A stretch of 64,000 bases of DNA from Balanoglossus misakiensis. Taxonomy: Eukaryota > Animalia > Hemichordata. The notes under the pieces are model-generated. The model worked only from the letters and a program-made list of their open reading frames with translations. It had not been told where the DNA came from and did not search any database. Positions within the stretch are counted from its first letter, which is position 1. Every line of letters begins with the position of its first letter. A program made the translations under genes and the position numbers. The stretch lies in contig CM082584.2 in the NCBI GenBank assembly GCA_040954595.2, positions 2,325,344 through 2,389,343 on the forward strand. Direction: 5' to 3'. Below, in pieces: positions 30,601 to 64,000 of the stretch.

Positions 30601-32009
30601 CAAATCGGTTATCTCTCAAAGCTAAAAGGGTTATCACCAAACAGATTACAATGCCTAAGTTAAAATGTTTAAGACATTTTCTTTAGTTGTGGTTTTGGTT
30701 TTATCGGTTTTCCCAATAAAAATTAGGATAATTTTTTAAGTATGCCAACGGAGAGGTGGAAATCTCACCAGAAAAGCGAAAATACACCAACCACGTTTAA
30801 ACCGTAAAATTAAAAAAAAAACACCTGCAAACACCGAGGTGACTCATATAAAAACCTCAAAGAACGTATGGAATTATGTATGGAAAAATACCGTGGTTTC
30901 CTGACCTTCCGCTAAACAAAGACTATACGTATGGAACTATCGTTCCGTCCACCAGCAAAGAGACTTTCCAGAGAAAAACGTTCTACCCGTACCTTATGTC
31001 GCCATAGTGACGTGCCATTTTGCCACAACCGTTCGACAGTATGGTCGACTATTTTGACACTAAACATCCTGCAGCGCTGCCATCCTTTTCAATCTCACAA
31101 ACTGGCCCTACGTGCGCTTAGGCAAGAGGCCTAGCAATAAAAATTTCACAAAATATAACCCTATAAATATGATAAGACTTTCTCGATTATGACTTCCTGG
31201 TCTCCTGATTCGGGAGCCAGCGCAGCCATACCCAGAATAGCCGAGAGGCTAGCTGCACGCCCGTAGCTCGGAATTGTTTCTGGAATTAAACCTACTTCTG
31301 TTCAACTACAAGGTGTTGTACGGATAGCTGCAAGTCACCCAATACCAGACAAAACAATCGAGTGACGGTAACATAGCTAAATAGGCTATTGTACTAAAAG
31401 CAATGATTCGATTATGAGCCTACCGAAAAGACGTCTTGATCCCGCGGCAAGTAGAAGGAAAGTGGTCGAAACCCGGCGTCGCACACCGGAAACGGATCAA
31501 TGATCACCTGTTGTTATGGTGAGTAGAACGTGTTACCCAATCACAGACCAAAGTTAGCATTACGACACACTAATGAATATGCATACATGCTACAGCTGCA
31601 TATTTTATTTCTTTAGAACGCTCTGGAACATGCTCGCATTCGAAAGAATATCTCATTTGCTTTTTGAGTGTGAGTGCCTCATTGTCTACACAATAAAATC
31701 GGGGGGGGGGGGGGGGCACAGTGGGTAATTTCTACCACAGCCACGCATTTCAAACCAGGCAAGCGAACTGCAAACTTCCGATGTCTGAGCAACGGGTTTG
31801 ATGTGCCTTGTGTTGTGAACACTTATTCGACTTCGAGGAAACAGAGCTATAATACTTCCTAATGTGTTTCTCTTTCTGTGTCATTTTGGTCAGTCAGACC
31901 ACGATACCCGAGATCGTAAACTGCTTGGGTTAGGTCGCTTAGGAGGCTGCAACTGCGGCCACAGGTCATGTCGGTGTGTGTTGTAAACAAACATGGTAAA
32001 TGCCTCCCG
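24650..32009. repeat. 7.36-kb tandem segmental duplication, copy B
   Basis: Near-identical to copy A. Differences seen: gattggg vs ggttggg (~20598/27956) and a poly-G run 3 nt longer (~31701). Confidence 0.95.
26615..27052. mobile_element. Duplicate copy of the 438-bp double-hairpin insertion
   Basis: Same sequence at +7358, inside copy B of the duplication. Confidence 0.75.
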
Positions 32010-43100: not shown

Positions 43101-45119
43101 ATACATGTATATATATTTCTTTTCAATGTACAACACTATATCACAAGTCATCTTTTCACAAGAGGTGGGCCAAACCATACAGGAAACTGTGAACAATCAT
43201 TCAATGCTTTGATATTTGGACTGACAACACCACTCTTTGGCACAATATTCAATTTCAAACATTTTTGAATACTGTAAACGCATTGAATATCGCATGTATT
43301 AAATGTTGCTATTTTGCAATTGGGGCCAGTGAATGAGCATTTAAATATAAGAATGCAAGGTTCTCAAAAGAAATAAAAGTCACTGTTTGTTCCTTTGATT
43401 TGTGTATCATTTGATAAACTGCAGCCATACACATTCATTGACGAGAAGTGTCAAAACATCCACAGGTCTATTCATTGAATGTGAGGTGCAAAGCTAGAAA
43501 TGGAGATGTTACTAGTAGTGTAATACAAAGACAGCAAATAGCAGCCGGACTTGTTTCCTACAAAAAAATCCAGCCATGTCATGTTGCTGGAAAGTCTTTG
43601 TACTTCAATAACAATACAGTCCAATTATGAAAGGGAAAGCTATGGATATGTCCTGTTTTAAACATTTGTTTGTACTATTTTGATATTCGCCATGTTAATA
43701 TCACCACAAGCTAATATCCAAACTACACACAACTGCAAGTTCACTGGCCTCAAGTCACTTATGGATGTTGACACTAATACCCATTAAAACTTCCTATCTG
43801 GGAACATGTAAATGCACACTACAGGAAAACAAACCAATAATTCAGAACACTATTGTGACGGTCACAGAACTTGTGAATTTATTACAAAAGCAGTCATCCT
43901 GAAAATTGAAATACACAACCTGACGACCATCACTGATTTTAGTCAGCTACCATCACTGAATGAAGAACTCAAACAAAAAATTGCTTAATACGCTGTTAAA
44001 AATAACAATGCAACAAAAAACACAAATGATCGACTCCAGTCATATATGTACATCAAGCAACATCAACTGAAAGGCTACAGGCAGTATCGTCAATACACAG
44101 GTTGTTGTTGCTATGCTCAAGGCGTCAATGAATTGGTGGTCACATTTCATTGAACAATGAATGGGCAAGTGCTCACTCACTTCTTCAGTGAATTTCACTG
44201 TTTGTTTATCTTATCATAAAAACTTGGGCACCACAGTCCTTTGGATAAAAATATTCATGTGTGGTGATTTAAAATCAGTGTTGCAAGAAACAGAATTAAT
44301 CACAGGATTAATGGCTTCTGATTGAAAAATACTAAATGCTTAATATGCCATATGCCGCACACAGAGTGATCACATTAGTCAATTGGACCGCTGTTCCGAA
44401 GGACTAAAATGATTGCAATGTTTTAATATTATATTTATTTTACAAAACCCTTACATCTGAGCTTTACTTTAAAGTACTTCCATTTACAAGTAGTACAAGT
44501 ACACATCAGTTAACATTGACAGCTAGGCATGACGTCATAGATGTAGGACTTCAAAACTGACATTCTGAACAGTGGGGGCGCTCTATCATAGTGGGTTTTA
44601 ATGAACATGTGTATTTAATTTCATGAATCAGATATATCAATGAAAACTGTGTGTTTTAACATACGCTTATTGTTTATGCATTTGCAGTATCTAGTCATAT
44701 TACAGTAATACACCAGACATGTTCTTAACTCAATCAATGTGTGTGTGTAAGTTCAATTTCTGACCACACTCAGATTACCCAAGTCCATGTGACCAACTCT
44801 ACTGCAAGTATACAGACTTGAACTCCGGAAAACTAGTCACCTACAATACTTGAACTGGAGCCACATCCAAAACTTGACTTTGAGATATTTTATCAAATCA
44901 GTGCTCCTTTTAGAATTAGAACTCCTATGCAATTTTTGTGACAGAAGAAATAATGAGATTCCCAGAAAGAACCTCCCAGTTCCCTTTTTAGAGGTCCAAC
45001 CTTACCATAGAAAACAACGGGTTTGGACTGTACCATGGTGGTGAAATGGTTAAGCCAGAGCATGTATCAAAATACAGTAAAACCTGTCTCAACCAAAACC
45101 TGTCTATTACAAGGACATT

Positions 45120-46240
45120 GTTCAAACTCCTAGGTTCACTTTTGTTAAATCGCAACACCTGGTCCAGAGCAGTGCAAACATTGGCTAATCAAGCCAGCAA
45201 GGTGTTGTCTCTACTCTCAGTTGCCAGGTGGAAACTAGGGTATATGCCATTTGAATGTCACTTCAAGGTGTTTGATGCCATGATCTTACCCATTCTTTGT
45301 TATGGATCGGAGACTTGAGTTTTATGACATCATAGAAAAAGTGCAAAGAACATGGTGCAGAATTTTTCTAGGTGTGCCAAGGAGCACTACCAATGAAGCT
45401 GTTATTGGAGAATGTGGGCGGTTGCGAGTGTATGTTCACACAATGTTGTATTCGTTACTGGGTGAAACTTATAGAGATGCCACAGGAAAGACTCCCTAGG
45501 CAAGCATATTTAATGCTACATACGTAATCTTGACTGTTTAGGCCGTCACACTTGGGCAACATCGGTGAAACACATTTTATTTTCGCCTGGATTTCTCAGG
45601 AAAGAGGCGATAAGCGTTTGTTCCTTTCAGCATTTGAGACAAGAATTTCAGATATTTTGAAGCAACAATGGAAATCACACTGTCCGTCCAAAACCAAACT
45701 CCGTACATACACATATTTTAAATCATTGTTACAGCCTGAAAAGTAGTTAATGTCAACTGTACACGTAATGTCAAAGACATTTTTGCATGTTTTCGCTGTT
45801 CTGCCCTTCCTCTTGCAATAGAGGAGGGAAGAGATCAGAATGTGGACGTTTCAGAGAGACACTGTAGGCTATGCTCTGGTGCACAAATAGAAGACGAGTA
45901 TCACTTTTTACTTGTTTGCCCCTTATATGACAGTCTTAGAAAACAATATATTGGTTACACTAAAATTCCCCACATTCAAATGTTTGTTAATATCATGAGC
46001 GCATCAGAATCCTCAAGTATTTATGTTTACAATGCCTTTAAACTTAGAGAAAATGTGTTAAAAAACTTAATCTGCTAAGTTCCTCACTTTGTATCCCGAG
46101 TACGTACTTCCACACAAGTGCTGCTTGATGTTGTCATTTATATTATTTGAGTACATGTATTATTTATTTCATTTTCGTACAATTTTCTGATTACCTTTAT
46201 GCCCTCTTACCTATGGGCTGGAGGCCTTGACAATCAATTA
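45120..46240 (+). mobile_element. 5'-truncated, frameshifted LINE ORF2 C-terminus and 3' UTR (RTE-X/CR1-group-like)
   Basis: ORF pieces KVFDAMILPILCYGSE, IEKVQRTWCRIFLGVPRSTTNEAVIGECGR, KLRTYTYFK and the Cys/His motif RHCRLC...IEDEYHFLLVCPLYDSLR are typical of the LINE post-RT region. Multiple stops and frameshifts. Confidence 0.88.
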
Positions 46241-46459
46241 ACGTGCACTGTTGTGCACCTGAACAATGAACAACAAATCAATCACACATTCTCACTGAAT
46301 CGAAAGCTGTATATGACACAAGCGCTGATTCAGATTGGATGACAAAGCTAAATGTTATCCTATGATACAGAAACTACAACGTGCCAGATGACAGTTCAAG
46401 AGTCATTTATTTAATGTTTTAAAACGAATTTGGCTAATTTGTGGCCGTGTGAGAAATAT

Positions 46460-46603
46460 AATCTCACACACCAAGGACCTGGGATCATATTTCTCACACT
46501 CGTCAGGGATATTTTGTCCCACACTCGACTGCAGCTTGTTTGGGACAGAAAATCCTCAACACATGTGAGAAATATGATCCCAAGTCCTTGGGAGTGTGAG
46601 ATT
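46460..46603. repeat. Long imperfect hairpin, part of a palindromic non-autonomous element spanning ~46440-46750
   Basis: aatctcacacaccaaggacctgggatcatatttctcaca...tgtgagaaatatgatcccaagtccttgggagtgtgagatt; related words recur to ~46710. Confidence 0.7.
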
Positions 46604-47126
46604 CTATTAGTCTTACAACCTTAGGACCTGGTAAAAGATTTCTCAGACGAGGTGGGGATATTTTTAGCTCGTGTTAGACAAGCCAAAATATCCCTGATGA
46701 GTGTAAGAAATTGCGTTAAGTACACGGTGGTCCCATTCACGGATAATACAAGAAAAAAGTCTACACCGGAGTACATATACAGACAGACACACACACACAC
46801 ACACACACATCAAGAGATCTACAGGCAAACATTGGCTGACCCATAAGCTGCCAATGGCATGTGTACTGTACACACACCAAATAGAACAGCTGGTCTCTTT
46901 AACAGTTAGCCAGTTATGTAAACATGCAGTTACCAATCACTGTTATTATTAACAAATTGCATCCAAGTCCAGACCCAGGCTTGAATACAATGTTTACACA
47001 TAACAACATTGCTTACCCATCGAGCTGAACAAGAAATGATGGTTGATAACCAGAAAAATACTAAATAAAAATTCAAAAGTTACAGATACTGGACCTTTCG
47101 TTGTCCACATATTGTGCTGGTCTTAC

Positions 47127-47234
47127 CTGTACACTCTCCATTGACCAATCAATATCCCACAGAACAAGTGCAATAAAAAGAGCCTGCTGTATTCACACAC
47201 TGGCGTTCACAAAGATCTGCTCTCTTATTGACAT
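47127..47234 (-). pseudogene. Degenerate calcium-binding EGF-like exon
   Basis: 108-bp phase 1-1 exon (tttcag|...|gtaaga) encoding DVNKRADLCERQCVNTAGSFYCTCSVGY*LVNGECT. It keeps the cbEGF CxNTxGSFxCxC pattern but lacks the first Cys and has an in-frame TGA. Confidence 0.8.
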
Positions 47235-47361
47235 CTGAAATCAAAGATAGTTTATTATTTTTAATTTTATTATTATTTATTTCCTGACAAACGTAATACA
47301 CATACATCTTAGTGCATTTTCTACTGAAAATAATAAAATTGGAAAACAAGTGAAAGCTTAA

Positions 47362-50002
47362 AGAGCATATCTTGCCTTTTTAAATCTTATCAGAAGGTTA
47401 AAAAATGATTGAAAGAAATCTAATATTTACCAAAAGTGACAATATTTTTCGGGTATCGATTTCCATAATATTTGTTTTGTTCTCATAAAATAGACCAGCT
47501 TTAGCGATGCTCACAGGTGTCATACGGTGTTTTCGTGCTTTTCTGTGTAATACCACAATGGGAAAAAGAGGTGGTTGCCGTGGTTGCAGCAACACATTAC
47601 CTAGACGGAAGTCACCCATGTGAATTCCCCGAAAACCAATGAAAGTCTATGCCACGATCATCGATATTGTACGGTGGATATGAAGCCATCCGGCGGCGGC
47701 GGCCGTAACTGTCAATGCATGACCGTTGAACGATAATCGGCCAGGTTTGAATCACGAGAAGACAATCCACACCCTTACAGGAAAATAGAAGCCTGTCAGT
47801 AGGAGAGGTCGACCAGTGATCAATATTCAATTCAGAGCACAACTGATCGTTTATACCCGATATTGGTGTTCATTCAGTGTTCCAGCGACCGCGATTACAC
47901 AGTAGAAGGTGAACTGGCAGGAGGCGTAAACACAATTTTGCGCTGGCCGACATCAAGATTGCTTATAATTATTCACTCTTTCGTCTGGCTACCCGGTACC
48001 CAGGGACCGCAAACTTCGATAATTAAGGTTGACAGCAATCAATGTGAAAACTTGAACGTTCAAAATATTACTGTTACTATTTCACATTTTTTTCAGTCAT
48101 ACCTTTGTATGGCTTCGGGCTGAATGGTCGCCATCTTTCTTTTCTAATTTCTTTGTTTACAAGTTTTACGTCGCACTATGTCCGACTCATCGGTTCCAAA
48201 ACACACTGTACAAATTTTGAAACAAAATGTGTTGAATAAATTTTGCCGCGTGTGAGTGAAAACCGTTTCCAAACTTGGATATTCGTGTGTATCAATGAAA
48301 ATGTTTCATGCTTTGTGAGCGTGAGTGGGTCGGCCCGGCATGATCGCCTGTTGCTGTTGGTTGTATGGTTTCATTTTGTTATAATGCAGTATGAAGCATG
48401 TGAAGGAACTTTCATGATTACAGCGACAAGTCATAAATGTTTCTGTTTGTCATCACCAAAAAGGCATATAGCTTACATGTAATTCAGAAGACAGAATTTT
48501 AGTGCTGGCATGGTACATATACATCGCGGCGCGATATGTGTCATCGCTGCTGACTGCGTGTACACGCATCGGCGCTGATGGAGTTCCCTTGTAATAACAC
48601 GCGCGTATTTTGTCTGTTGAGGCAGTGATCGAAAATCGCCAAAAGACCACGATATATCAGTTGTCAATAAGTTGACATTGTCCAAGATAAGTAGATTGAG
48701 ACCCAACACTCTAGTCCTAAACCTCTGGGCAATATTCCACGGTTTAAGATGGGTCCCCCGGATCTTTTTGCCCGTTGCTATGGGCCTTTGCAGGACATTA
48801 CACCCCGATTTGGACTAAGCCGTTTTCAGAGTCTAACAAGGGGCTGGTAACTAGTTGAAAATCTGCACGATTGTGAGCGCGCGCCCCCTGACGCCATTGA
48901 TATGCAAATTAGCTAGGTCAAATTTCAAAAGCCTAAGGCTTTTTATTCCGTGACCTCAAAAACGAACTTGATACGTATTCATTAGTTGCTTGAACCAGGG
49001 AAGATCGTGACGGATTTTGTTTTCGAATATTATCGTTGTATCCTACGATTTCAGCATACCCGTACCACAGCGGAAAAAGTCATCGATTTTAGGTGTTTTT
49101 GGACGCACTCTTCCACCGGTATCGCTTCTTAGCACGACGAAAACCGAAAAAACGATCCGTCACACTGTGAGGAAGTGCGTTCTCAACAAGCAGGTCAAAT
49201 TTGACTGGCGTACGTGGCCTATGAAAAAAGCCTTAGGGATTTTCGTGAACGGTACAAAATCTCTGTGTACAAAACATTGGATTTTTAGCGTTCGATCCAG
49301 TTACTGTGGTCACAGGACGCGCATGCTATCGCTGACCGCTGCTTTACCGTATTAGCGTGGCGGCCTATGGCCGGGCGGTAGCTGCCGTAAACATACTCGG
49401 ACAGGGGGTGTGTACACAATCGTGTGTATTTTTAACTAGTCACAAGCCCCTTGTCGGACGTTCATAACGGTTTCGATCAAAATTGAGTGTAGTGTCCTAT
49501 AAAGGCCCATAGAAACGAGCAAAAAGATACGGGGGACCCATCTTAATCGAGGCAGCAATCATTGTATGTGTAAGGTGCCTATACACATCCGCTGCCATTG
49601 CATGTTGTGTACTGCTTGCAATGCGTAGCCGTAGCCTAACCGGGCCGAGTAGTGTTATTTTTTTCATAATCGCATCTCCCCTAGATGAAAAGGTATATAT
49701 GTACATTTATTTTGAATGGAACGGGGGATCCAGAGGCTGACCCAGCAAAGCTGTTTAGATCACAGACATGTATGATTGCAATTCAACCACTGTAATGTAC
49801 AGTCTTGCAAACGTAAATGGGTTCCTCTTGTGACGTCACAGAAATGGGCGTGGCCCAAACAGAAGTTTTTTCTCAGGCCCTGAACATTTTTAAATTTAAC
49901 ATTTATTTATCCATATGAAATAAGTAAAAGGACACCAGCATTTAACACACAAGCCCAATTATTATTTATCCTCAAAGTGTGTTTCGAGCTAAGATATACT
50001 CT
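47362..50002. mobile_element. Non-autonomous Kolobok-like DNA transposon (2.64 kb)
   Basis: TTAA|AGAGCATATCTT ... AAGATATACTCT|TTAA: 12-bp TIR (11/12), purine-purine termini and a TTAA TSD. No transposase ORF seen. Confidence 0.75.
48748..49542. mobile_element. Kolobok-like MITE (795 bp) nested inside the previous element
   Basis: TTAA|GATGGGTCCCCCG... and ...CGGGGGACCCATC|TTAA. The imperfect TIR extends ~125 bp, to cacgattgtg / cacaatcgtg. Confidence 0.88.
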
Positions 50003-50957
50003 TTAAAGGATAAAAAAATTACACTTAAAAACCCCAAAGAAACCAAAACAGTTCTGAAAGACATTCCTTTTAAACCAAAAAAAGCAATGGAATGAAATTG
50101 TGCAGAATAAAAAGACGAGTTTTTAAACCCCTTTTAAAACTGTCTATAGATCCAGCATTGCGGATAGAAGGTGAGGTTGATGACACATATTCGTAACCAC
50201 ATATTAATTGATCAGTTGATTGTTTTTACACCAAAGTCCTCAATATCCATGGCAATCTCTTTCTAGGAATTTTAACACTCTCTATCATTCTCACTTTAAC
50301 AAAATCCCCTGAAACTCGTGTACCCTGTCAGCAAAACTTTGTCTGATTTTTAAAACAACAGATTACTTTTTCACCCTTGCAAACAAATTTTCAATGCTAA
50401 GTTTTCACATTTGTTAATTTGTTTATATTATGCATAATTATAATTGGAAAATTTCTGAGATACAATTTCAACAAACATGTGTTCAGTACGAGTGTGCGGT
50501 TGATTTCAAATTTTAAAATGTGTGCAATGGACAGACAGGATGCATGTTTTATTGTAACCATAGCAATATACAATCCCCAAACAGTGTAGCCACAGAAGAG
50601 ATCAATATCCACAGTTACATACCTGCACATGCATGGCCATCCTCCAGCACATTGAAGCCTTGTCTGCAAGCGCAGCAATAACTACCATGGGTATTCTGAC
50701 AATAGTGTTGACACGCATTTCCACAACTGTGACATTTATTCATATCTGGAGGGTAAGAAGAAATTCGAAATAATTTACAAGCATTACATTATTCAAGGTA
50801 AGCCTACTCTTGACTACTGGAATCTCACACCAAAGACAACTGGGCTCAGATTATAACAAGATGGGGATAATTTTTCTCAATTTCATCATTTGAGACAACA
50901 TATCCCCAAACTTATGTAGTGTCGACGTAACATTATAACATAGTTATATCACTGTCA

Positions 50958-51037
50958 GGCATTTGTGTCCTACAGTCAAGGGGTTTTAGACACCTGCAGT
51001 CATTTTGATGGCGTTGGTTTGAATCCCACCAGTGCCA
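50958..51037 (+). pseudogene. Degenerate tRNA-Leu-like sequence (pseudogene or SINE head)
   Basis: The 3' half cagtcattttgatggcgttggtttgaatcccaccagtgcca resembles the long variable arm, T arm and acceptor of eukaryotic tRNA-Leu, and ggcatt pairs with agtgcc. The D and anticodon arms are degenerate and the B box is mutated (GGTTTGAATCC). Confidence 0.65.
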
Positions 51038-51226
51038 GAAGTGTCCCTTACGAAAAAGGTTCTATAGAACTCTATAGACCTCTATAGAAACGTGTAGAAA
51101 TCAATAGAAAATCAATAGAAATTTATTTTCTATAGAATTCTACAGGTGACTTCTATTAATTTTCAACAGAAAATCAATAGAATATTATTTTCTATAGAAT
51201 TATACAGATGATTTCCATTAAACTAG

Positions 51227-52650
51227 CCGTCAATAGATTTTCTATTGAAAATATTACCTAGCATGAAATAAGTGAAAAATGATTTTTAATAGGTTTTAAC
51301 ATGATTATCATACAATGACAAAGCAATTTGTAAGATTTGCCCCCATTACACATATTTCACTGTGAACAAAGTATATTTTAACAGAAATCCACAGACTCTA
51401 TTGAATTCTATTGATGTCAATAGATTTTCTATTGAAAAATATTGTCAACCTTGAAATGGTTGAAAGAAATATTTTTCCCTAGTTTTTAGCAAATGTGTGC
51501 ACATAATCATCACAAAATGAAAAGGAATTTGTCAGGTTTGCCCCAACTACATACATTTCACTGTGAACAGTGTATTTTAACAAAAATCCACTGTCTCTAT
51601 TGAATTCTATTGCCGTCAATAGATTTTCTATTGAAAAATATTGCCAACCATGAAATAGATGAAAGAAACATTTTCCCCTAGTTTTTAGCAAATGTGTGCA
51701 CATAATCAACACAAAATGACAAATGAATTTGTCAGGTTTGGCCCAACTACATATATTTCACTGTGAACAGTGTATTTTAACAAAAATCCACTGACTCTAT
51801 TGAATTCTATTGCCGTCAATAGATTTTCTATTGAAAAATATTGTCAACCTTGAAATGGTTGAAAGAAATATTTTTCCCTAGTTTTTAGCAAATGTGTGCA
51901 CATAATCATCACAAAATGACAAAGGAATTTGTCAGGTTTGCCCCAACTACATACATTTCACTGTGAACAGTGTATTTTAACAAAAGCCACTGTCTCTATT
52001 GAATTCTATTGCCGTCAATAGATTTTCTATTGAAAAATATTGCCAACCATGAAATAGGTGAAAGAAACATTTTCCCCTAGTTTTTAGCAAATGTGTGCAC
52101 ATAATCATCACAAAACGACAAATGAATTTGTCAGGTTTGGCCCAACTACATATATTTCACTGTGAACAGTGTATTTTAACAAAAATCCACTGTCTCTATT
52201 GAATTCTATTGCCGTCAATAGATTTTCTATTGAAAAATATTGCCAACCATGAAATAGGTGAAAGAAACATTTTCCCCTAGTTTTTAGCAAATGTGTGCAC
52301 ATAATCAACACAAAACGACAAATGAATTTGTCAGGTTTGGCCCAACTACATATATTTCACTGTGAACAGTGTATTTTAACAAAAATCCACTGACTCTATT
52401 GAATTCTATTGCCGTCAATAGATTTTCTATTGAAAAATATTGCCAACCATGAAATAGGTGAAAGAAACATTTTCCCCTAGTTTTTAGCAAATGTGTGCAC
52501 ATAATCATCACAAAATGACAAAGAGTTTGTCAGGTTTGCCCCAACTACATACATTTCACTGTGAACAGTGTATTTTAACAAAAATCCACTGTCTCTATTG
52601 AATTCTATTGCCGTCAATAGATTTTCTATTGAAAAATATTGCCAACCATG
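51227..52650. repeat. Left subterminal ~200-bp tandem repeat (about 7 copies)
   Basis: The anchor gtttttagcaaatgtgtgc occurs at 51482, 51681, 51881, 52080, 52280 and 52480. Each unit has the cluster ctctattgaattctattgccgtcaatagattttctattga. Confidence 0.95.
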
Positions 52651-52976
52651 ACCGGACGCTAAGGATTTTGATTTAGGCGAAGATTGTATCGTTTGGCCAT
52701 GGAAAGTAACCAGTTCACCCCGAGCAAACAGATACCAGTATACATTCAGCTCAAACACACAGCTATTCATTCTTAATCATTCTATTTTATATTGTGAATG
52801 AATACTTGACAAATATGTCTCTGTAAATAATTCATTTATTACAATTTCAAAATGATATCTGCAAAACACTGGTACATATACAAATCTGTATATAAATACA
52901 AATCAGAAGAAACGGACTCTCAACTACAGTACTGGGGTAAGTGTTTGCTACCTACAGACTTTTTTTGCAGCCCTTA

Positions 52977-55900
52977 TCAGTCCCTTTCAAAAGGGTTGGG
53001 GAGTGGTGAGAGGTAAATTGACTCACCCATTCCAAGAACTACACATTTACGTCTCAAAAACGACGGTCGCACAGCAATTCTTTCATGTGAAATCTCACGC
53101 AGTGGTTTTACATATGTACACTGTATGCCAATTTCATTGTCAACAAACATTGACCTCCCACTTAAACACCTACTGGCTATCAGGAATGATCTTTCATTAC
53201 AGTGACAATCACCTTGGCATATGCAACCTGGCCTAAGAATTACAAGGTTTCTTATTACATACAATTGCTCATCTTGTCCCTGAAAATAATGGTTCGTTCT
53301 CTTTGCTGCCCTAGTGTAGCTACTTGTTGTGAACACAGCACCTGATATAGTGAATCTCTTGTAATATTTGGCATTCACATTCAAGATAGGGTGGCCCACA
53401 GCCTCCTCTATAGCTAACCTGTCTGTCAATCTTATTTCCCGTTTGTCAGCAGCTCCCATGGCCACAACCCCTGAGCAGCTATGAAAGTCCCTCTTTAAAT
53501 GCACAATTCCTCTAGACAATTTGTCAAATAGTGGCCTCAGATCACTATCCTGTGGTATAATTGTGGATCTTCTTGATAAATCTCTCCACAGACAGAATGT
53601 GTTTGATATCTGTGAAGGCACACTTTGAGTACCCTGAAATAGCTTCATGATTACACCATTGTGACTTTCAAACACAAAGGAAGATGTAGCCCAGAGAGGT
53701 GCCCATTCCCTAACACTACTAGACAAATGCAGTAGAATGTGCATATTAAATGACATCACTTCTTTCCCATAAAGGCATTCAGTTTGAGTCACAAACTTTC
53801 TGATTGCCTGCTCTGCCAGATCAACAGAGCGGGCTGTTACTTTTTCCTGAAGTAACGTGTGGATTCCAAAAACCAGCAAAAACCAATGGTTCAGAAAAAC
53901 TGCAGGTAACACACCTCTCAGAACAATTAAAGAATAGAAAAGGAGAAATGCCCTCCACTCCGAACCTTTCCAATACTTTCTGTAATCTAACGATCGTGGT
54001 GTCCTGGTTATTTCATTTGGAGGAAACTGCTGCATCAAACGGGAATTAATTACACGTTGTTTAGCAGGGGCTAAGTACCAGGGTTTCTGCTTGTTTTCAC
54101 TGTCAAGCCAAAGTGAGGTGATTTGCCTGACAACCCCTAATAAAACACAATGCAAAAAATCAGGAACAAACCCTTTCACAATGTCGAAATTGGGAAGCAA
54201 CATACACACACTGGGTCCCTTCACACCCAATATTGGTCGGTCTCTTTCAACCGCCTGCCTACAACAATCCTCATACTGATCGTTATTCCTCAACTCAGGA
54301 TGAGGAAGATCCTGTACACTATATACACGTGCATGACCATTGCCCTTTGCTATGTATTCCCCTGGGTGCAGGCACCAGTCACATCCATACTGCCCATTAT
54401 ACTGTTTGCAATTGCGCATCAAAGGCCTGGCAGCTGAATCAGAAGAACACAATAACACATGGACACATGTTGTGATTATCTCACCAGAACTTTGATTTCT
54501 CCAGGTAAAACCATCATTACCCAATTTCACACATTCTTCAACAAATGGTGCCAAAAAACAATCCATCTGTGGTTTGGATTGACCAAACCATAGGCCAGGC
54601 ATGAGAATATTTTGTTTTTGACATTTTGGAGTCAGTTCTGTCACTACACACTGAATGGGCCATATTGAGAAACCAGAGGACTTAAAGGCAGGGACCCCAT
54701 CACAATTCCAGAGAAGGGTTAAGTCATTATCTCTTATGATACCATTTTCAAGGAGATCTTGATAAATGGAGCCATCCAATAAATTTGAAACTGACAATTC
54801 ACTATTAATATTCTGATTTTCTAATAAATCTACAAGTTGGTCCTTGATTGGCATTACAATGAAAAAATTGTTATTTGCTACAGATATTTGCTCACTGAAA
54901 GGCTCATTACAGCTACCACAAGTGGTGTCAGTTTGAATTTCGCCCTCGGCACCAAGATATGCCATACAACTACAGCAATAGAAGTGCTTCTTACACGACA
55001 CAGCTGTCTCAGCAAAACAGTTCTTAAAAAAGTATGGTGTTGCTGGTACAGTTTCTGGTGCTATCAGGTTAATGACGTGCAACAAGTCTTTGAGAGCATC
55101 TTTTGTAAGTCGGTGTCTGAGGACAAAAGCCTGGAGAAGTAGACAAAGCTGTTCTGTTGTGACATTCATCTCTCCAGTTCCTTCTTCAGCTCCCTGAGAA
55201 TTAGAAAAATAGTAGTACATTTAGAAAAATAGGACAACCAGAAATAACATGAACAATGCAATGGTCACACTCACAGGACTGACACATTTAATTGTGATTT
55301 GACATTTGTGAAAACAGGTTCTGATCTCTTATGCATTGATCACCAGATTTTGAAAACAGGGGTCATGCTCTAAATAATAGGCCTCCTTGAGAATTAAAAT
55401 AAATGCATTCACAACCATAGAGACACTAGCTTTCATACTTGTATTTTATAATAACGATGTGTATTAAGTTGCATTAACATATAAAACAGATTGATTAGTG
55501 GAATACTAAACGATGTTGTAATAGCTAAACAAATAAAAAAAATTTAAATTTCCGATGATCAAAAGTTGGTCACATTGCTAAAAGAATAGAGACATTTTGG
55601 TGTGTATCACTGTCATGTTTCTGTCAAGGAATCAATGTGTATATTGCACCATGTCCACTTTTTCAAGTTGTAAATGCACACCCTTCAGTAAGTACACTTA
55701 CTTTGAAAGTAAATCATCAAAATAATGTAAAAAGTCATAGATCATAAGTGATTAAGGTAAGTTACCGCACAAAATTCAAATTGGCAACCATAAATTTTTT
55801 AAAGTCAAAAGCAGAACCTACCAATTCATCACCACTTTCTCCTGTGCCCGTCCCATTAGTGTTTTCGTTTGATATGCGTGTGTGTATAATTTCTTCACTT

Positions 55901-56871
55901 TCTTCAATCTCTCCACTTCCGCCACTCAGTAAGTTGACATGTGACGTTTCCTGAGCTGGTACTTGGTCATCTATGATGAATGATGTCTGATCATCTGATG
56001 TTTCGTCGGCTGATAAATAGTCATCTGTGTCTGGTTCTGTAGTGCTGTATTCATCAATGTCTGTATCTCTGTGAGAGAAAGTTAGTCCACTTCGATAACT
56101 GTCATGAGAGGCGTTACCATCATATAAATATTCATCATTGCCACTTTCAGATTGGTAGTCACTATTTACAGAACAACTGTCAGTGTCGATGGCGATATCA
56201 TCAGTCTGAAAGATATGAATAGAATGTGGTTAAGATATGTATTTCAGTATAGCAGGACTACATAATGCATATTACATCATTTGATTCTAAATCTCAGAGG
56301 AAAGTGCTAATGCTTTAATAGTTCTTATAAAGAAAAGTAGGCTGGTGTCAGTAATGACCTGTTTTTTTTTTTTTTTTTTCCCTAAATATTCGTAGTACTA
56401 AATTATTTTTCAATTAAAAAATACTGCAGCGGCATAAATGCTGCTATATTTAGACAAAGAGTTGGAGATGTACAAGCTAGCCTTTTGGACTTTAATAAAA
56501 CCAAAAACAACAGAAATAAAATGCATACACTACCTATGACACCCTATAATTATAACAATCACCGAGAAATGACAGACAATGCCAGTTTTCGCCCGGCGCT
56601 TGCTGCAGTTCCGTAGCCAGCAACTTTCCTCGATGTGTGTGTTACGGAAGGGGCACCTTTCCGTAACACACACATCGAGGAATGTTGCAGGCTACGGAAC
56701 TGCAGCTGCAGCAAGCGCGGCGCATACTTCAGGCCGTGGTAAAAAAAGAGCTACACTTACCTCTAAACCATGTTTATCGCGAATTCGCCATCTAAACAAG
56801 GTTCTCTTTGGAATACTGACTTCGGTATCATTTAGGTAACGCTTGTATGGACCGCGCACGACCCTCGACAT
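52977..56871 (-). CDS. CACTA/EnSpm (TnpD-like) DDE transposase, ~903 aa, 3 exons
   Basis: Exons 56761-56871 (MSRVVRGPYKRYLNDTEVSIPKRTLFRWRIRDKHGLE), 55822-56205 (acidic linker) and 52977-55193; both introns are phase 0, GT-AG. CMC motifs: HFYCCSC...CGSC, LLWNCDGVPAFKSS..SIWP, CSSDSAAR..NCKQYNGQYGCDWC, DFLHCVLLG, WKGSEW, FNMHILLHL, SSFVFES. A minus-strand AATAAA lies at 52835-52840. Confidence 0.93.
56596..56718. repeat. Near-perfect ~55-bp-arm hairpin in transposase intron 1
   Basis: gcgcttgctgcagttccgtagccagcaactttcctcgatgtgtgtgttacggaa, short loop, ttccgtaacacacacatcgaggaatgttgcaggctacggaactgcag(ctgcag)caagcgc. Confidence 0.9.
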
Positions 56872-57310
56872 GTCTCTTCCGCGACGAACAGCGATCTGAT
56901 GATCTAGTGAATCAGCTGTGCAAGCGTCGGTGACTGCGGTGCATGCTGGGTGATAGATATGGCATCATCTCAAGTACAAATTTTAACGTTCCGATCGATC
57001 TGTGGTACTACTTTAAGGTGAATTTTGGCGTTTCAAAATAAAGTGAATGATATCTTAACGTGTTTTTTTTTCAAATAACATCTCAGCTCTAAGAAATGCT
57101 GTATTTTAAAATCACATGACCTACTGCATGACCTTTGACTCTTCTCATAAACGCCCGCATTTCTTACCCAGCATGCATCGAGGTAAATAAATAGTCGGCG
57201 AACTCCTGACCTTTTACAGCTGATTCAGTAACCACCGAAGACACACTACGCGTCACTCGCTACCAGCTCCGCTTAAGATTTCGCTATTTACGAACGTCGA
57301 TCTAGTCACC
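56872..57310. promoter_or_regulatory. Putative bidirectional promoter with mirrored Staf/ZNF143-type sites and CAGCTG/Inr-like motifs
   Basis: 439 bp between divergent ATGs. Minus strand: TCACCCAGCATGCACCGCA (56935-56953), then ACAGCTGATTCACT. Plus strand: TTACCCAGCATGCATCGAG (57164-57182), then ACAGCTGATTCAGT (57216-57229). Confidence 0.75.
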
Positions 57311-60300
57311 ATGAAGTACGCTTTATTTGATTTTTACGAAGAAAAGAGTGTTGAAGTTGGTGAGACGAATTGGATAGAAGATCTCGATGAAGACGACGTT
57401 ATGAGTTTTGACTTCGACGAAGATTGTGCTGTCCAGTGGTCATCAAAGAAGGCAGGAAGAGATCCGGCGAGATATGTAGCAAAAGTTATCAAGTTTAGCG
57501 GTAAGAATTGTTTGGATTTTTTCAAAACTCAAAAAAAACGTGTCAGGTAGAAACATTTCCCAATGTTGAAGACGTTCATTGTAGAAAGTTACCTTTATCT
57601 CGATCCCAGGGTCTTGGGCTCCCTTGAACCAAACACAGCTTGTTTACTTCCTGTTCATTGTTATACTATTTGCATAACAAAACGAGTTGCCAGGAAAGCC
57701 AGCAACCCCTTTGTTTTACTTTGTGACACAATTTTTTTACGTGGTTTGTGTTGTGCATTTTTGATCGTCAGCAAAAGTTTCTCATTCAGTTGTGTGTGTG
57801 TGTGTTTTTCACAACCAGGTCATAATGTTTATCTTTACAGATGACAGGCAGGAGCTGTTGCGACTAGCCAACGTCTATGTCAAAAAAGGGGTGAACACAA
57901 ACATTAAGACTCCAGAATATGGACGGGGGAAACGTGAAAAGGCACCAAAGAGAATCTACACCGACAGCGAAGATGATGAAGATGATTATGTACCGGTAAG
58001 TTGATATTTAACTACCATGTGGCTGATGCAGAATTCAATATGATTTATCTAGGTACAGATGATATTAATTTCTCGTTGTCAATATAAACACCCATTTTCA
58101 AAACTCCATGCCAAGTGTTCAGAAGTATCTCACAATAATCATTTCATTTCTTTTTTAGGAAAAAAATAACTTGAATAAAAAAAAGAAGATCAGCCAAAAG
58201 AATTCGTCTTTAAATTTGCTGAGAAAGTTAGAAAGCAAGAAGACATCTGAAGTTCGTAAAAAAATGGAGGAGGATGTCCAGTCACTTAAGTCTGTAAGTA
58301 CTGGCAATGTCATACGCCACAATTTCTGCCCCTGAAGCATATACTTTTACTTCCAAACTTGCACAAAAGCTAAAATAATGCTGACGTATAAGAGAGTGTT
58401 GTGAGCTTGTGTGGCTTAATTATGAAACAGGGATTGCACTAGTGTTTGCTCAGAATGAGTCCCTGTCACATGAAATTAAAGACAGGAAATTAAAATTTTT
58501 GTATTTATGTGAGAGATGGGACCCCTCTGTGTAAAAAGTAAGAGTCCCCCTGAAAAGTTCGGGAAGCAAAATATGGGGTTAACGCAACCCCTGCAAAATG
58601 TATCTTTAAAATGTGAGCAAAGTTATGCAATTATTGAAACTAATAATATTTCCATCAAAAAGTGACTGCAGTTCAGTGCTGTTGATGGGTAAATATCACA
58701 AGCATGTTGAAATCCATGTATGAACTGTGTTGTTATTGTTGACAACTGTGATTTTTAGTCTATTTCATTAATGTTCCTCTGCATTCTAGAGTTCATTCCG
58801 TGCTTCAACACCAGTGTCCAGTGGCTCAGAAGGCTATGATGAGGACAAGCTACACCAAGAAATAAGGGAATTGAAGGAGGAAAATGCTGCACTACGCTAT
58901 TCTCTTCGAGTGTTAAAAGGTAAAAGAATATTGATACACGCATTGAATAAAGTCAGTGGATTGTTTTAGTTCTTGTATATTTTTAATGCAATGAGTAGGT
59001 TTTAGCTGAATCAAATTATTTTGTCAGTGTTTTTTTTGTTTTATTTTTAGAAATATCAAAAGTCAACAGCCAAAATATGCCACAGAATGACTGTTTTTGA
59101 AAATACTCATGAATATCACAAAAGAACATCATTTTCGGCATTTTTTTGACGAGAAATTGAAGTATCAAGGACTCCATATATGTTTTGAAATACAAAGTAA
59201 AATGTTACCATAATTAATTTATAAATGAAAAACATTTAATTTATTCACTTGTACATGATGACTAAGCTGGGCAAGCTGTAACTTACCTTTTTCAGCACCA
59301 ATGAAAGCCTTCATTTGTGACCAGCTTTCTCAAACTATGTGTTTTGTAGTTACTTGACAATAGTTTGATAATGCTGGTCAGTATGTAAACATCTCAGTTC
59401 ACCACAATTAAAATAATTTTGTTTATGGATGATGGTCCACTGTCTTATTGGTTAACAATATTTTTTTGCCAGGATTGTCTCTTTTTTATTCCTTTTCCTA
59501 TGAACTATTGGAGTTAAATCAATGAACATATGTCCTATACCTCTATTTTCTAATCTTTTCAAATGGTATAGAGTTACCTGGCCTGCTTGGACAAATTGCT
59601 GATGTAAAAAGAACATTTGGTGTAAAGACTGGTGCACCTGCAGTCTCAAAGACAAATAAATCCAGTGGAACACATGATGCCCAATTGAACAGTGAAGAGG
59701 TAACTGTTGACATCTATTTCAATTTATCATGAATGTCTGATTTCAGGAATCTGCATAGACATAGTCATAGTCATTCAAATAATACTTCTGCTTCTTAGGT
59801 TCAACCATATGGCCTAAGTAAGAAAATTCTTTGTTCTGCATGTGTATGTTTTGCGAGATTTCATGAAAAAAACTTTTCTGCCTGCAAATTTTTGTATACA
59901 TGCTTTGGGAAATGTGATTGGAACACCTGCATGCTTGCAGAATGTCACATTTGAGTGCAACTTAACAGGGTGAAAAATTAGTTTCTGCTGAGATTCTTGA
60001 TAAGGTGCTTGTATTACATGGAAACTATCGAGTAAATATTAAATTTACCTGTTAAAAATTTCTGTGTTTCTGAACTTGTGCACTTACCTATCAAAATCTG
60101 AGTAGATGCAAAACAAAGAATTTAATTATTTTGGTCATAAAGTTTTTGTTTATTTATCTGCAGACCTGATGATTGCAACTCTGTTTAGAACAGATCATGG
60201 CTCTGCAACTTTACTTCCATGGAAAATGTGGTTGTATTGTTAGAGCTGTTGATTTCATAGAAAATAGAAAGTATTGTAAGAACTCTGTGATAGAGTTTTT

Positions 60301-61138
60301 ACTGTACTTTCTATTTTATCAGGTTTTCTATGACAGTAATCATATTTATTTTGTGTCTGCCTCTAGTGTTACCAATTATTTTGGTCTTTTTCAGATTTTG
60401 GTCAATGATGAGATGATAGTAACTGCCAAGCAGCTGAGCCGCGTTGACAAATCAACAGCGAAGAAAATGACGTATGATTTGATGGCAGTGGTGTTTGATA
60501 GGGAAACACTCAGGACTCATTCGTATAGTGGCAGAGTGTGCAACTCAGTCAAGGGTTCTTTACCCAAACCAGCGCTGGATGCCGACAAAATAAGAGCCAT
60601 TAAAGGTATGTAGGTATTAAGTTACTTATCATCTCCAATTATTAATTTGCTATTTTAGGTCATAGGAATACACAAAGATATATTGGCATTTTGTATATTT
60701 GGAGTGATCAGTGATGTATACCTCTTTAACATAGTGTAACCTGCTGTAGATAGGGTGCAAATTTTGCAGTGCTTTTGCAAAATCTGCTTTGGTCTGCTAA
60801 TGGAGACCTGTATGTGGAATGAGATAGGCCATCTTTAAAAAGTTGTAAAAGCGTTTAAGGGACTGCGAATCAAATATACCATTCTCTCTACCGTAACCTT
60901 GATATATTTTCATTTAGTTTGTTCTTTGTTTCTGGCGGTTAGGTTTTAGAAAAAAAAAATATAGTATGGCAAACAAAGACATCTCTAAGGTTTGAGCTTT
61001 GGTTCAGTACAATTTCATTCAGCAATTATTTTTCTCTGTTTCCCCACAGATATTGTATGCAGCAAGTTTGACTGCAAGGTTGCTGAGGTGGAGCAGTACA
61101 TTAAAATGAAAATTTACTCCGAAGCAAAACACAAGTAG
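57311..61138 (+). CDS. Transposon-encoded coiled-coil plus C-terminal BEN-domain protein, ~345 aa, 7 exons
   Basis: Exons 57311-57500, 57841-57995, 58159-58293, 58790-58919, 59572-59699, 60395-60605 and 61050-61138; all introns GT-AG, phase-consistent, with no stops. Coiled coil LHQEIRELKEENAALRYSL. BEN-like C-terminus KMTYDLMAVVFDRETLRTHSYSG...PKPALDADKIRAIKDIV...VEQYIKMKI. AATAAA at 61227. Confidence 0.85.
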
Positions 61139-61463
61139 TGTGGTTAACTGTTTCATTTATGTGTTTTGCTTATCTTTATTTATTTAAACTCTATTTTTCA
61201 TGTCACCTTTTTTATTGATTTATTGCAATAAAATGTTAAGTTTTAATTTGATGAGTATGTTGGTTTTTTCTCAAATATTTCACTGAAAGCCAGCAGAAAA
61301 CTAATTTGACTGAGGCAACACTGTATTTAGCACATTTATGTGTTAATATTAAACAACAGACTGAAAGAATATGCTGAGTATTCAGTGAAGTATTTTTTTT
61401 TATAAATATCAATCTTTTTGCCCGAATCCCACCCCTCTGTCTTTGGTAACCAGATAATACAGG

Positions 61464-62390
61464 ATCAATACACATCTATAACTCTTCTATAGAAGTTCAA
61501 TAGAAAATCAATTGAAATCTATATCTCTTCTATAGAAAATCAATACACATCTATAACTCTTTTATAGAAGTTCAATAGAAAATCAATTGAAATCTATATC
61601 TCTTCTATAGAAAATCAATAGCATATCAATGGAAATCTAGATCTCTTCTATAGAAAATCAATACACATCGATAACTCTTCTATAGAAAATCAATAGAATA
61701 TCAATTGAAATCTATATCTCTTCTATAGAAAATCAATACACATCGATAACTCTTCTATAGAAAATCAATAGAATATCAATTGAAATCTATATCTCTTCTA
61801 TAGAAAATCAATACACATCTATAACGCTTTTATAGAAGTTCAATAGAAAATCAATTGAAATCTAGATCTCTTCTATAGAAAATCAATACACATCGATAAC
61901 TCTTCTATAGAAAATCAATAGAATATCAATTGAAATCTATATCTCTTCTATAGAAAATCAATACACATCGATAACTCTTCTATAGAAAATCAATAGAATA
62001 TCAATTGAAATCTATATCTCTTCTATAGAAAATCAATACACATCTATAACTCTTTTATAGAAGTTCAATAGAAAATCAATTGAAATCTATATCTCTTCTA
62101 TAGAAAATCAATACACATCGATAACTCTTCTATAGAAAATCAATAGAATATCAATTGAAATCTATATCTCTTCTATAGAAAATCAATACACATCTATAAC
62201 TCTTCTATAGAAGTTCAATAGAAAATCAATTGAAATCTATATCTCTTCTATAGAAGTTTAATTGAAAAGTGGCCAAAAGTCCATAGAAGTCAATAGAATT
62301 TCCATAGAAATTCCATTGAGTTTCCATGGAATATCCATTGATTCTTAATAGAAATTTTTATTGAAAAGCAATAGAAGTTCTATAGAACTT
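61464..62390. repeat. Right subterminal 75-bp tandem repeat built from ~11-bp TCWATWGAA sub-units
   Basis: atcaatacacatc recurs at 61464, 61539, 61657, 61732 and 61807 (mostly a 75-bp period). Units are made of tctatagaa, tcaatagaa and tcaattgaa; degenerate ~11-mers continue into the TIR. Confidence 0.95.
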
Positions 62391-64000
62391 TTTCGTAAGG
62401 GAATCAATCAAAGTGTATTATAAAACCAGATTCCAAGAAAATACAGCTGTTCAAAGGGGCTTAGGCTTTTTTCATCTTCACTTGTCAGGTTGATATGACT
62501 ATTGTTAGTATGCAGTGTTGTATGAAATGTTTTACATCGCTTACTTACCTCACCCAACATGGCAGCCAATTGTTCTACAGTAAATCCACTGTAATTAATA
62601 CTACCTTGACTTGGCAAAGGATATGGAGGAGAGTTCAGATCAATATACAATGTTTCTATATTGGTGCGCTGTATACAAAGAGAAGATAAAACAATATTTT
62701 GTTATTGGCAGTATTGTCAGTCAGTGTTTTTTTTTAACCCTTCCACCCCAATTTCCTCTTCAGTGCTCCAACCTTAACATAGAAAACAATGCAGTTGGAC
62801 TGAACCATTGTGGTGATCAGGGTAATGTAACCAGGGTTCCCCAGTCATTTTGTTAACATTCCTTATGGTACCATAAATGCAGTCATATTAATGGTAAGAC
62901 AGGTGTTACATGGGGTTTCAAAATCACTTATTGCTCCACCCCCCCCCCCCCAACAATAGCCAAAATACTGTCAGTGTTATCCAAATTCTTATTTCACACC
63001 TGTTACAACTAACAAGGTATCTGTCGCAGTCATTTTATGCTCTTTTAGTATCCAGGATCTATTGTCGATGATATAATTAGGTATCCCAATGAATTTTTTT
63101 AACTTTCCTAAATCACATTTTTGTTAGTTTCATTGAAAAGTACATAGAATTTCATGAAAAATGATACCTCATTTTAAAAAATTGACCAAAGATTAAGCAA
63201 GATTGAGCAATATTTGACCTTTAAGGTCAACGACCTTTTCAAAATTACTAAAAAGCAGCATTTTCACAGCCTCATAGAATTTTACCAAAAATTGTAAACA
63301 TACTTCATCATGCCTTTTCCTGTAGAAAACAACCTATTAAATGTCATTTTAAAATTGAACAGCATGTTTAAAGAGGAGTTTTAGGGCAAATCACTACCAA
63401 AAAATGACAAAAACTCAATTTTGTGCAATGTGAAAATACCAAAAATTGGCCTTTCGGGCATTTTCATAGTTCTCTAAAAAAAAATGTTTCAAAGTTAGGA
63501 GTCTAAAACTGATTATAGTCTTACTAAATGTTACCCTTAAAATGCCTATTTTTTTCTGTGTACAAAAAATAACTGTAACTGGGAGAAAAATGGGCCTGAA
63601 AATGTTAATTTTGCCAATTTTACTTAGTGATAAAATGTGCTAAAATTTACCAAAAATCGCAATTTTCAAATGCGCATAAAATCAAAACCATACAAGCTAA
63701 TCACATGAAACTTTCAGGATGTATTCATTTTTATTTGTTCTTTACAAATAATGAGAAATTGTTGCTATATAAGTTTCACATTTGCTTCAATAAATTCTCT
63801 AAATTTGATTTAATCTGCTAAACTGCGCCAAAATCCACAAAAATGTGACATTGTAAGTGAAGTCGAAATGACTCGTTTTAGCAGTTTTAGCATTATTTTT
63901 ATATGGTTATATGGTAAGCTACATTTAAAAACTGGACAAACAAAAACTGAAGCTTGTGTCAAGGTATGTACTAGTTTTTTATTTTTCTTATTGTCAAGTT

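What the first reader, a model, noticed from the sequence alone, without database searches (positions are those of the whole stretch)
51045..62401. Intact two-gene animal CACTA/EnSpm transposon pairing a DDE transposase with a divergent BEN-domain protein
Seen: matching TIRs enclose a stop-free 3-exon CMC transposase and a stop-free 7-exon gene for an acidic/basic, coiled-coil, BEN-like protein, arranged head to head. Known: plant En/Spm needs TnpA, a DNA-binding accessory protein that binds subterminal repeats, besides the TnpD transposase, and both come from one alternatively spliced transcript; BEN domains are sequence-specific DNA-binding/chromatin modules. Inference: here a separate BEN gene fills the TnpA role (end synapsis, autoregulation or anti-silencing). 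Both genes being intact amid decayed neighbours suggests a young element. I cannot check whether this architecture is already catalogued.
Basis: partly seen in the sequence, partly recalled or inferred. Interest (0 to 1): 0.9.

Follow-up and report, generated by a model that had tools for sequence, protein, structure and literature searches.

The report
Transposon with its own Tudor-BEN helper
This animal jumping gene carries, head to head with its cutting enzyme, a second gene kept in many related elements, whose BEN-domain protein likely grips the repeated palindromes at the element's ends and likely helps it move, much as an unrelated helper protein does in maize.

Summary
Confirmed: an 11,357-bp animal CACTA/EnSpm-type element (CCC...GGG ends) with a stop-free 903-aa transposase model and, divergently, a stop-free 345-aa gene whose exon 6 passes Pfam's BEN cut-off. 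The second gene is no one-off capture: in 80 related loci all 23 partner-gene hits lie upstream and on the opposite strand (15 of 54 families; 9 of 11 where the flank allows a test), with a shared intron position. Added here: exon 1 is predicted to fold like a KDM4-type hybrid Tudor domain, and the ends hold 78 copies of an AT-centred palindrome, a trait of 22 of 34 related families (0 of 34 controls). Best reading: a non-homologous stand-in for plant TnpA that binds these repeats; binding and need for transposition are untested. Against 'clean young insertion': no target-site duplication, flanks that seem to come from different genes, and a 99.4%-identical variant with a frameshifted transposase. 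No paper linking BEN to these elements turned up in ten searches, but Repbase/Dfam and two key BEN papers were out of reach. This scan noted the same design earlier in several other genomes.

The parts
51045..51071 (+). Left terminal inverted repeat (starts CCC)
   Evidence: aligned with right end and with L006 ends
51061..52651 (.). Left subterminal region: motif cluster plus 200-bp unit x 6.8; 32 copies of the palindromic motif TCHATDGA
52977..55193 (-). Transposase exon 3 (zinc finger, D330, D417, C436/C439, H650/H654, E674, stop)
55822..56205 (-). Transposase exon 2 (acidic linker; donor position least certain)
56602..56706 (.). 105-bp fold-back in transposase intron 1 (probably an inserted small element)
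   Evidence: z -17
56761..56871 (-). Transposase exon 1 (conserved basic N-terminal motif)
56872..57310 (.). 439-bp region between the two start codons, inferred bidirectional promoter; CpG observed/expected 1.24 over 56520-57500 against 0.27 and 0.36 in the gene bodies
57311..57500 (+). Partner gene exon 1: predicted hybrid-Tudor-like domain
57841..57995 (+). Partner gene exon 2 (helix, basic then acidic stretch)
58159..58293 (+). Partner gene exon 3 (basic linker)
58790..58919 (+). Partner gene exon 4 (coiled coil)
   Evidence: long helix in the homologue's model
59572..59699 (+). Partner gene exon 5 (linker)
60395..60605 (+). Partner gene exon 6: BEN domain, first part
61050..61138 (+). Partner gene exon 7: BEN C-terminal helices and stop
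61486..62386 (.). Right subterminal region: 75-bp unit x 10.3 plus motif cluster; 46 copies of TCHATDGA
62376..62401 (-). Right terminal inverted repeat (ends GGG)

Best explanation
This is a two-gene animal CACTA/EnSpm-type cut-and-paste transposon whose second gene, a long-standing part of the lineage, encodes a BEN-domain protein with a predicted Tudor domain and coiled coil that likely binds the palindrome arrays at both ends and likely helps the transposase pair and cut them. Shown: ends, both reading frames, BEN domain, head-to-head layout shared with related elements, palindrome arrays. Inferred: (1) both genes are read from one unmethylated bidirectional promoter; (2) the coiled coil makes dimers or oligomers whose BEN domains bind the AT-centred palindromes (about 0.65); (3) the coated ends are bridged and the DDE transposase is loaded at the CCC termini, as modelled for plant TnpA/TnpD (about 0.45); (4) the Tudor-like domain reads chromatin or a methylated partner (about 0.4). 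It works like TnpA but is not related to it.
For: Partner hits 23 of 23 upstream and opposite strand, 19 of 80 loci, 15 of 54 families; 9 of 11 families with transposase exon 1 found and at least 1 kb beyond; 8 of 8 loci with at least 6.6 kb upstream, none in 154 kb of downstream flank. BEN profile built only from library proteins finds 8 loci at E<=2e-5, best reversed decoy E 1.1; 6 of these 8 pass Pfam's BEN cut-off; all 8 end at the same phase-1 intron as the window. L006 holds both genes inside CCC...GGG repeats. Motif TCHATDGA: 78 copies in the two ends, 1 in 8.8 kb inside, 4 in 51 kb outside; 83 in the window against 16 expected. Palindromic hexamer arrays behind the transposase in 22 of 34 families, 19 of them CCATGG or CTATAG, against 0 of 34 in coding regions and 0 of 34 in shuffles. 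Homologue model matches DNA-bound Insv, Bsg25A and BEND6 BEN domains, rmsd 1.3-1.5. Insv-type BEN domains bind palindromes as homodimers (PMC4281564, passages); NACC1 binds CATG and BANP oligomerises through a coiled coil (PMC11472053, passages). TnpA binds subterminal repeats and is needed for transposition (PMC2613891, passages).
Against: No binding, expression or transposition data. The motif was chosen after seeing the repeats, and many copies come from tandem amplification. The Insv consensus does not fit: 1 of 29 matches with up to one mismatch lies in the arrays, and the total is near chance. A 2026 preprint finds the TnpA-type DNA-binding domain usually fused to the transposase in animal Spm elements, so the transposase itself might bind the repeats; whether this transposase has that domain was not tested. 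Co-divergence of the two genes is mixed: Tudor exon rho 0.39, p 0.005, n 11; BEN exon rho -0.05, p 0.61, n 9. Two of 11 testable families showed no hit (only 1.1-1.3 kb of room). The Tudor match is of middling strength (Z 7.4; Foldseek E 0.2). No target-site duplication in 2 of 2 complete copies.
Confidence: 0.6

Rival explanations
1. The partner binds the element's own repeats or promoter but acts as a transcriptional or chromatin regulator (anti-silencing factor, insulator or self-repressor), not as part of the cutting complex.
For: Known BEN proteins are repressors and insulator factors; the N-terminal domain resembles histone-reading hybrid Tudor domains of KDM4 and ARID4; the shared promoter region is CpG-rich while both gene bodies are CpG-poor; plant TnpA has anti-silencing activity (preprint passages).
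Against: The palindromes sit at the ends, 4 kb or more from the promoter, with only 1 copy in the 8.8-kb interior; their conserved position next to the termini fits an end-assembly role. The two roles are not exclusive.
Confidence: 0.25
2. The transposase alone binds the repeats; the partner steers insertion to marked chromatin through its Tudor domain, with BEN holding target DNA.
For: Animal Spm transposases typically carry their own DNA-binding domain; this transposase has a conserved basic N-terminal motif and a four-cysteine cluster; BEN exon divergence does not track transposase divergence.
Against: Repeated palindromes are the type of site BEN dimers bind; no insertion-site data were available.
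Confidence: 0.11
3. A host BEN gene captured once and carried as a passenger.
For: Closest named relatives are annotated as host-like genes ('BEND6-like', 'early boundary activity protein-like'); the coding differences between this copy and the variant in run X1 look unselected (15 of 16 listed change the residue).
Against: Same position, strand and intron in 15 families whose transposases are only about 40-55% identical in the core; several of the named relatives are themselves multi-locus in their genomes; neutral drift between two recent copies is expected for any transposon gene.
Confidence: 0.04

Closest known systems
Animal CACTA/EnSpm elements ('TRC': SmTRC1 of Schistosoma and the Aedes and Tribolium elements; PMC1636069, passages)
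   Same: Transposase_21 domain, CCC termini, internal tandem repeats, spliced genes.
   Different: In the passages seen, SmTRC1's extra proteins come from alternative splicing and have no recognised domain; here a separate divergent gene encodes Tudor-like, coiled-coil and BEN domains. The 2-bp target duplication (7 of 14 SmTRC1 copies) is absent here.
Plant En/Spm with TnpD and TnpA (PMC2613891, PMC13547354, bioRxiv 10.64898/2026.08.24.746577; passages, and section 6 of the preprint)
   Same: Related transposase, subterminal repeat arrays, a second element-encoded protein with a DNA-binding fold and a small beta-barrel-type domain.
   Different: TnpA binds DNA through tandem helix-turn-helix motifs, is reported only in flowering plants, and is made by splicing or from a head-to-tail gene; this partner has a BEN fold and is head to head.
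PIF/Harbinger transposons with a Myb/SANT helper (recalled; no call)
   Same: Two separate genes, a DNA-binding helper beside a DDE transposase in animals; the helper is recalled to bind subterminal palindromes.
   Different: Different transposase superfamily and a Myb rather than BEN domain.
BEN-solo factors Insv, Bsg25A/Elba1 and human BEND6 (PMC4281564 passages; PDB 4ix7, 4x0g, 7yul)
   Same: The window's BEN exon hits BEND6 (E 2e-5) and Insv (E 1e-3) by sequence; the homologue's model overlays them at rmsd 1.3-1.5; the element-borne exon in L050 hits BEND6 at E 1e-12.
   Different: They are host genes; the partner has an extra Tudor-like domain, sits in a transposon, and the Insv site does not match its repeats.

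Membership tests
CACTA/EnSpm (CMC clade), animal type | Transposase with Transposase_21 domain | tested here: met
   34.6 bits, cut-off 28.6
CACTA/EnSpm (CMC clade), animal type | [quoted passage not shown] | tested here: met
   D330, D417, C436-x2-C439, H650-x3-H654, E674, each 99-100% conserved among the 120 listed homologues that cover the column; catalytic roles inferred from order and conservation
CACTA/EnSpm (CMC clade), animal type | Short terminal inverted repeats starting CCC or CAC | tested here: met
   CCC...GGG; CCC reported for animal members
CACTA/EnSpm (CMC clade), animal type | Subterminal repeat arrays | tested here: met
CACTA/EnSpm (CMC clade), animal type | 2-3-bp target-site duplication | tested here: inconclusive
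   Absent in the window and in L006, 0 of 2 complete copies; but the window's flanks seem to belong to different genes, no empty site could be read, and SmTRC1 shows it in only 7 of 14 copies
TnpA (plant En/Spm accessory protein) | [quoted passage not shown] | tested here: not met
   The partner's folded domains match BEN and hybrid Tudor structures instead; not filed as a TnpA
TnpA (plant En/Spm accessory protein) | Encoded by alternative splicing or by a head-to-tail gene | tested here: not met
   Separate head-to-head gene
TnpA (plant En/Spm accessory protein) | Binds subterminal repeats and is required for transposition | not testable with these tools
   Only indirect: palindrome arrays
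BEN domain (PF10523) | Pfam score above the curated cut-off | tested here: met
   32 bits against 23.2 on exon 6 alone
BEN domain (PF10523) | BEN fold | tested here: met
   Tested on the full-length homologue P0151, not on the spliced window protein: Foldseek E 1.7e-7 to Insv, rmsd 1.3
BEN-solo factors (Insv/Elba type) | [quoted passage not shown] | tested here: not met
   Extra Tudor-like domain; Insv consensus not enriched in the ends
Hybrid Tudor domain (KDM4/ARID4 type) | Fold | tested here: inconclusive
   Model pLDDT 84; top three of 48,161 chains are JMJD2C, ARID4B and RBBP1 Tudor domains, Z 7.4, 7.0, 5.9, rmsd 1.5-1.9 over 50-55 residues, next unrelated row 3.9; Foldseek TM 0.71-0.72 but E 0.2; no Pfam Tudor hit
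Hybrid Tudor domain (KDM4/ARID4 type) | Aromatic cage binding methyl-lysine | not tested
   Cage residues were not mapped and binding cannot be assayed here

The most novel reading that the evidence does not exclude
Animal CACTA/EnSpm transposons replaced the TnpA function with a Tudor-coiled-coil-BEN protein that reads both their terminal palindromes and histone marks, and this mobile gene family is the source from which host BEN-solo regulators such as human BEND6 and fly Insv/Elba were domesticated, as Myb/SANT factors were from Harbinger elements.
Probability: 0.3. Interest if true: 0.85.

Novelty: new variant of a known kind. Interest (0 to 1): 0.62.

Why it matters
It names a candidate for the missing helper of animal CACTA/EnSpm elements, which a 2026 structure survey describes as usually carrying the DNA-binding domain inside the transposase, and gives a complete two-gene copy with a defined candidate binding site, so the idea is directly testable. 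It would explain why fish, insect and invertebrate annotations hold multi-copy 'BEND6-like' and 'Elba-like' genes, and it offers a transposon origin for BEN chromatin regulators: one element-borne BEN exon is far closer to human BEND6 than the window's own is. A Tudor-like reader joined to a sequence-specific binder would also be a new way for an animal transposon to deal with host chromatin.

Tried and rejected
No whole genome is held for the window, so copy number and empty sites could not be counted. No RNA holder listed. Runs X4 and X5 (small share) gave only patchy, mostly shallow cover when laid; not used. Depth in X1 is flat over both genes (663-775 on the long contigs) but no flank baseline was obtained, so it gives no copy number; the best DNA holder may be the window's own source. 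Word-index searches found no relative of the BEN exon and only P0151 itself for P0151. No relative in viral contigs. No tRNA and no Rfam family at gathering score in 44000-64000. Insv consensus as the repeat motif: rejected. Terminal-repeat search over the loci with at least 500 bp upstream and 200 bp downstream found a pair enclosing both genes only in L006; the pair in L067 excludes its BEN exon. L065 and L007 have the BEN exon close to the transposase with no exon-1 hits between and look like internal deletions. Pfam and PDB sequence searches do not name the N-terminal domain and the transposase profile has no solved relative at E<0.5. A 21-row BEN tree left the window's row unplaced; L050, L035 and L067 grouped with a pike and a carp protein (99/94); no BEND5, BEND6 or Insv row was available, so domestication was not tested. 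A likeness of the N-terminal domain to human BEND5 is recalled only and was not testable. Literature: ten searches listed no paper tying BEN to CACTA/EnSpm; of the two papers holding both 'BEN domain' and 'CACTA', one was opened and treats them separately, the other was seen as a listing only. Abhiman 2008, Dai 2013 and Pan 2023 are not held; Repbase and Dfam could not be searched; figures and bioRxiv supplements of the 2026 preprint, whose 'other' accessory domains might include BEN, could not be seen.
Full report
Observation. The flanks give no target-site duplication (GT on the left, AA on the right). On the minus strand three GT-AG exons give a 903-aa open frame, 56% identical along its length to a Glandiceps talaboti protein, including the short first exon; the long exon passes Pfam Transposase_21 and has 170 relatives at E<=0.001, the named ones from fish, sea urchins, oyster, ticks, a sea spider and Hydra. 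On the plus strand seven GT-AG exons give a 345-aa open frame; exon 6 passes Pfam BEN and the whole model aligns with a Ptychodera flava protein at 31% over 347 columns, which supports the exon chain. The best named match of each gene is from an acorn worm, so the host is perhaps a hemichordate (inference). No RNA supports the joints.

Transposase. D330, D417, C436-x2-C439, H650-x3-H654 and E674 are 99-100% conserved among the 120 listed homologues, in the order given for the CMC clade (PMC12730594, passages). CCC termini are the animal form (PMC1636069, passages). I file the element with animal CACTA/EnSpm on transposase, termini and subterminal repeats; the target duplication stays open.

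Is the second gene part of the element? A scan of metagenome contigs found 314 transposase relatives, of which the best 80 were kept; they fall into 54 families at 80% nucleotide identity. Their hosts were not determined. A BEN profile built only from library proteins hit 8 loci at E<=2e-5, best reversed decoy E 1.1; 6 of the 8 pass Pfam's cut-off, one is just under, one has no hit. A profile of the N-terminal exon from library proteins and the window hit 7 loci at E<0.01; iterated with locus hits, which inflates their scores, it hit 15. All 23 hits lie upstream of the transposase on the opposite strand, in 19 loci and 15 families; 191 kb upstream and 154 kb downstream were searched. All 8 loci with at least 6.6 kb upstream have a hit, 6 of them the BEN exon. 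Among families with transposase exon 1 located and at least 1 kb beyond it, 9 of 11 have a hit; the two misses had 1.1-1.3 kb of room. Most other loci are too short to test. The two first exons are 302-459 bp apart in five families and 1.0-1.7 kb in two; 439 bp here. All 8 BEN exons end at the same phase-1 intron as the window's. In L006 both genes lie inside CCC...GGG repeats 12.5 kb apart, again without a target duplication. Transposase cores of the BEN-bearing loci and the window are 38-67% identical, so the pairing is old. Co-divergence is mixed: Tudor exon rho 0.39, p 0.005; BEN exon rho -0.05, p 0.61.

The partner protein. The spliced protein could not be folded as such. The full-length homologue P0151 (12-row alignment) gave an N-terminal beta domain, a long coiled coil and a confident C-terminal domain, which matches Insv, Bsg25A and BEND6 BEN domains at rmsd 1.3-1.5. 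The window's exon 1, folded with 10 locus exons, gave pLDDT 84; its best matches are hybrid Tudor domains of KDM4 and ARID4 (Foldseek TM 0.71-0.72, E 0.2; Z 7.4, 7.0, 5.9, next row 3.9). The score is middling and a fold shows no function. The word 'Tudor-like' came first from earlier notes of this scan and was then tested here.

The ends. The motif TCHATDGA, chosen after inspection, occurs 32 times at the left end, 46 at the right, once in the 8.8-kb interior and 4 times in 51 kb outside; tandem units of 200 and 75 bp multiply it. As an independent test, 22 of the 34 families with at least 1 kb behind the transposase have five or more copies of one palindromic hexamer within 500 bp, 11 CCATGG and 8 CTATAG, against 0 of 34 coding regions, 0 of 34 shuffled flanks and 2 of 20 chunks of the window's other DNA, both in a satellite. 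All-AT hexamers were left out, which misses the CATATATG arrays of several more families. Most of the printed arrays run into a T-rich stretch and GGG. BEN proteins bind palindromes as dimers or oligomers (PMC4281564 and PMC11472053, passages), but the Insv consensus itself does not fit these repeats.

State of this copy. Run X1 covers both genes at even depth, one 4,335-base contig bridging transposase exon 3 and partner exon 1, with 49 substitutions in 8,811 bases and several one- or two-base gaps. Two gaps fall in the transposase frame: the first shifts it at codon 599 and stops it at 623, before E674; the partner frame is intact in X1, and a minority of X2 shows an extra base in partner exon 3. 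Of the 40 listed substitutions 16 are coding and 15 change a residue; at four of them X1 agrees with the homologue and the window does not, at five the reverse. So both forms have drifted without visible selection: the copy is recent but not pristine. The right flank holds a MED25-like exon with an in-frame stop, the left flank two EGF-like exons, and no further MED25 exon was found in 42.5-51 kb on that strand. A rearrangement at one end would explain the missing duplication (inference).

Mechanism. Most likely the partner oligomerises through its coiled coil, coats the palindrome arrays with its BEN domains and helps bring the ends and the transposase together, as TnpA does for maize En/Spm (PMC2613891, passages; a modelled 4:2 TnpA-TnpD complex in PMC13547354, passages). 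Rivals are a purely regulatory role and a target-steering role; a passenger gene is unlikely. None of these steps was tested experimentally.

Known and new. A 2026 preprint that modelled 962 Repbase Spm proteins reports TnpA-like proteins only in flowering plants, with tandem helix-turn-helix motifs, and the DNA-binding domain usually fused to the transposase in animals; its text does not mention BEN (section 6 and term search; figures and supplements not seen). This scan has recorded the same design in at least six other windows; these are unchecked notes and no support, but they show that this copy is one example of a recurring finding. The boldest reading, that host BEN-solo factors came from this gene, rests on the L050 exon matching human BEND6 at E 1e-12, P0151 matching Insv at E 1e-9 and multi-locus 'BEND6-like' and 'Elba-like' annotations; direction of transfer was not tested. 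Verdict: real, a new variant of a known kind, interest 0.62.

Noticed in passing
window 62551-62656 (-): MED25-like exon (Pfam Med25_VWA 23.6 bits, cut-off 21) with splice signals and an in-frame stop near its 5' end; no further MED25 exon found left of the element in 42.5-51 kb.
   Followed up: partly
window 50621-50746 and 47152-47379 (-): Two calcium-binding EGF-like exons, both just under Pfam's cut-off; part of a host gene or remnant in the left flank.
   Followed up: partly
window 17292-24648 and 24650-32009: Tandem duplication of 7,360 bp at 99.95% identity: very recent duplication or assembly artefact.
   Followed up: no
window 56602-56706: 105-bp near-perfect fold-back in transposase intron 1 (z -17); run X1 has contigs that share parts of it with other flanks, so probably a small dispersed element.
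   Followed up: partly
window 1-5316: Satellite of 192-bp units, about 28 copies, with higher-order structure.
   Followed up: no
window 51010-51040: The left flank ends in a stretch resembling a tRNA 3' arm (recalled likeness; ARAGORN finds no tRNA), perhaps a SINE head cut off at the junction.
   Followed up: partly
L050 908-1207 (-): Element-linked BEN exon matching human BEND6 at E 1e-12 and grouping with pike and carp proteins: the best lead for a domestication test.
   Followed up: partly
L001 about 9350-9365: The right terminus of this distant family (transposase core 54% identical) reads the same as the window's terminal 13 bases.
   Followed up: no
L067 7464-7692 and 13204-14271: Long nested inverted repeats enclose the transposase but not the BEN exon; a second CCATGG-type end lies near 16500: a rearranged or nested element.
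   Followed up: no
runs X1 and X2 on window 52660-61470: The majority form has a frameshifted transposase but an intact partner gene, in line with helper-retaining defective copies.
   Followed up: partly
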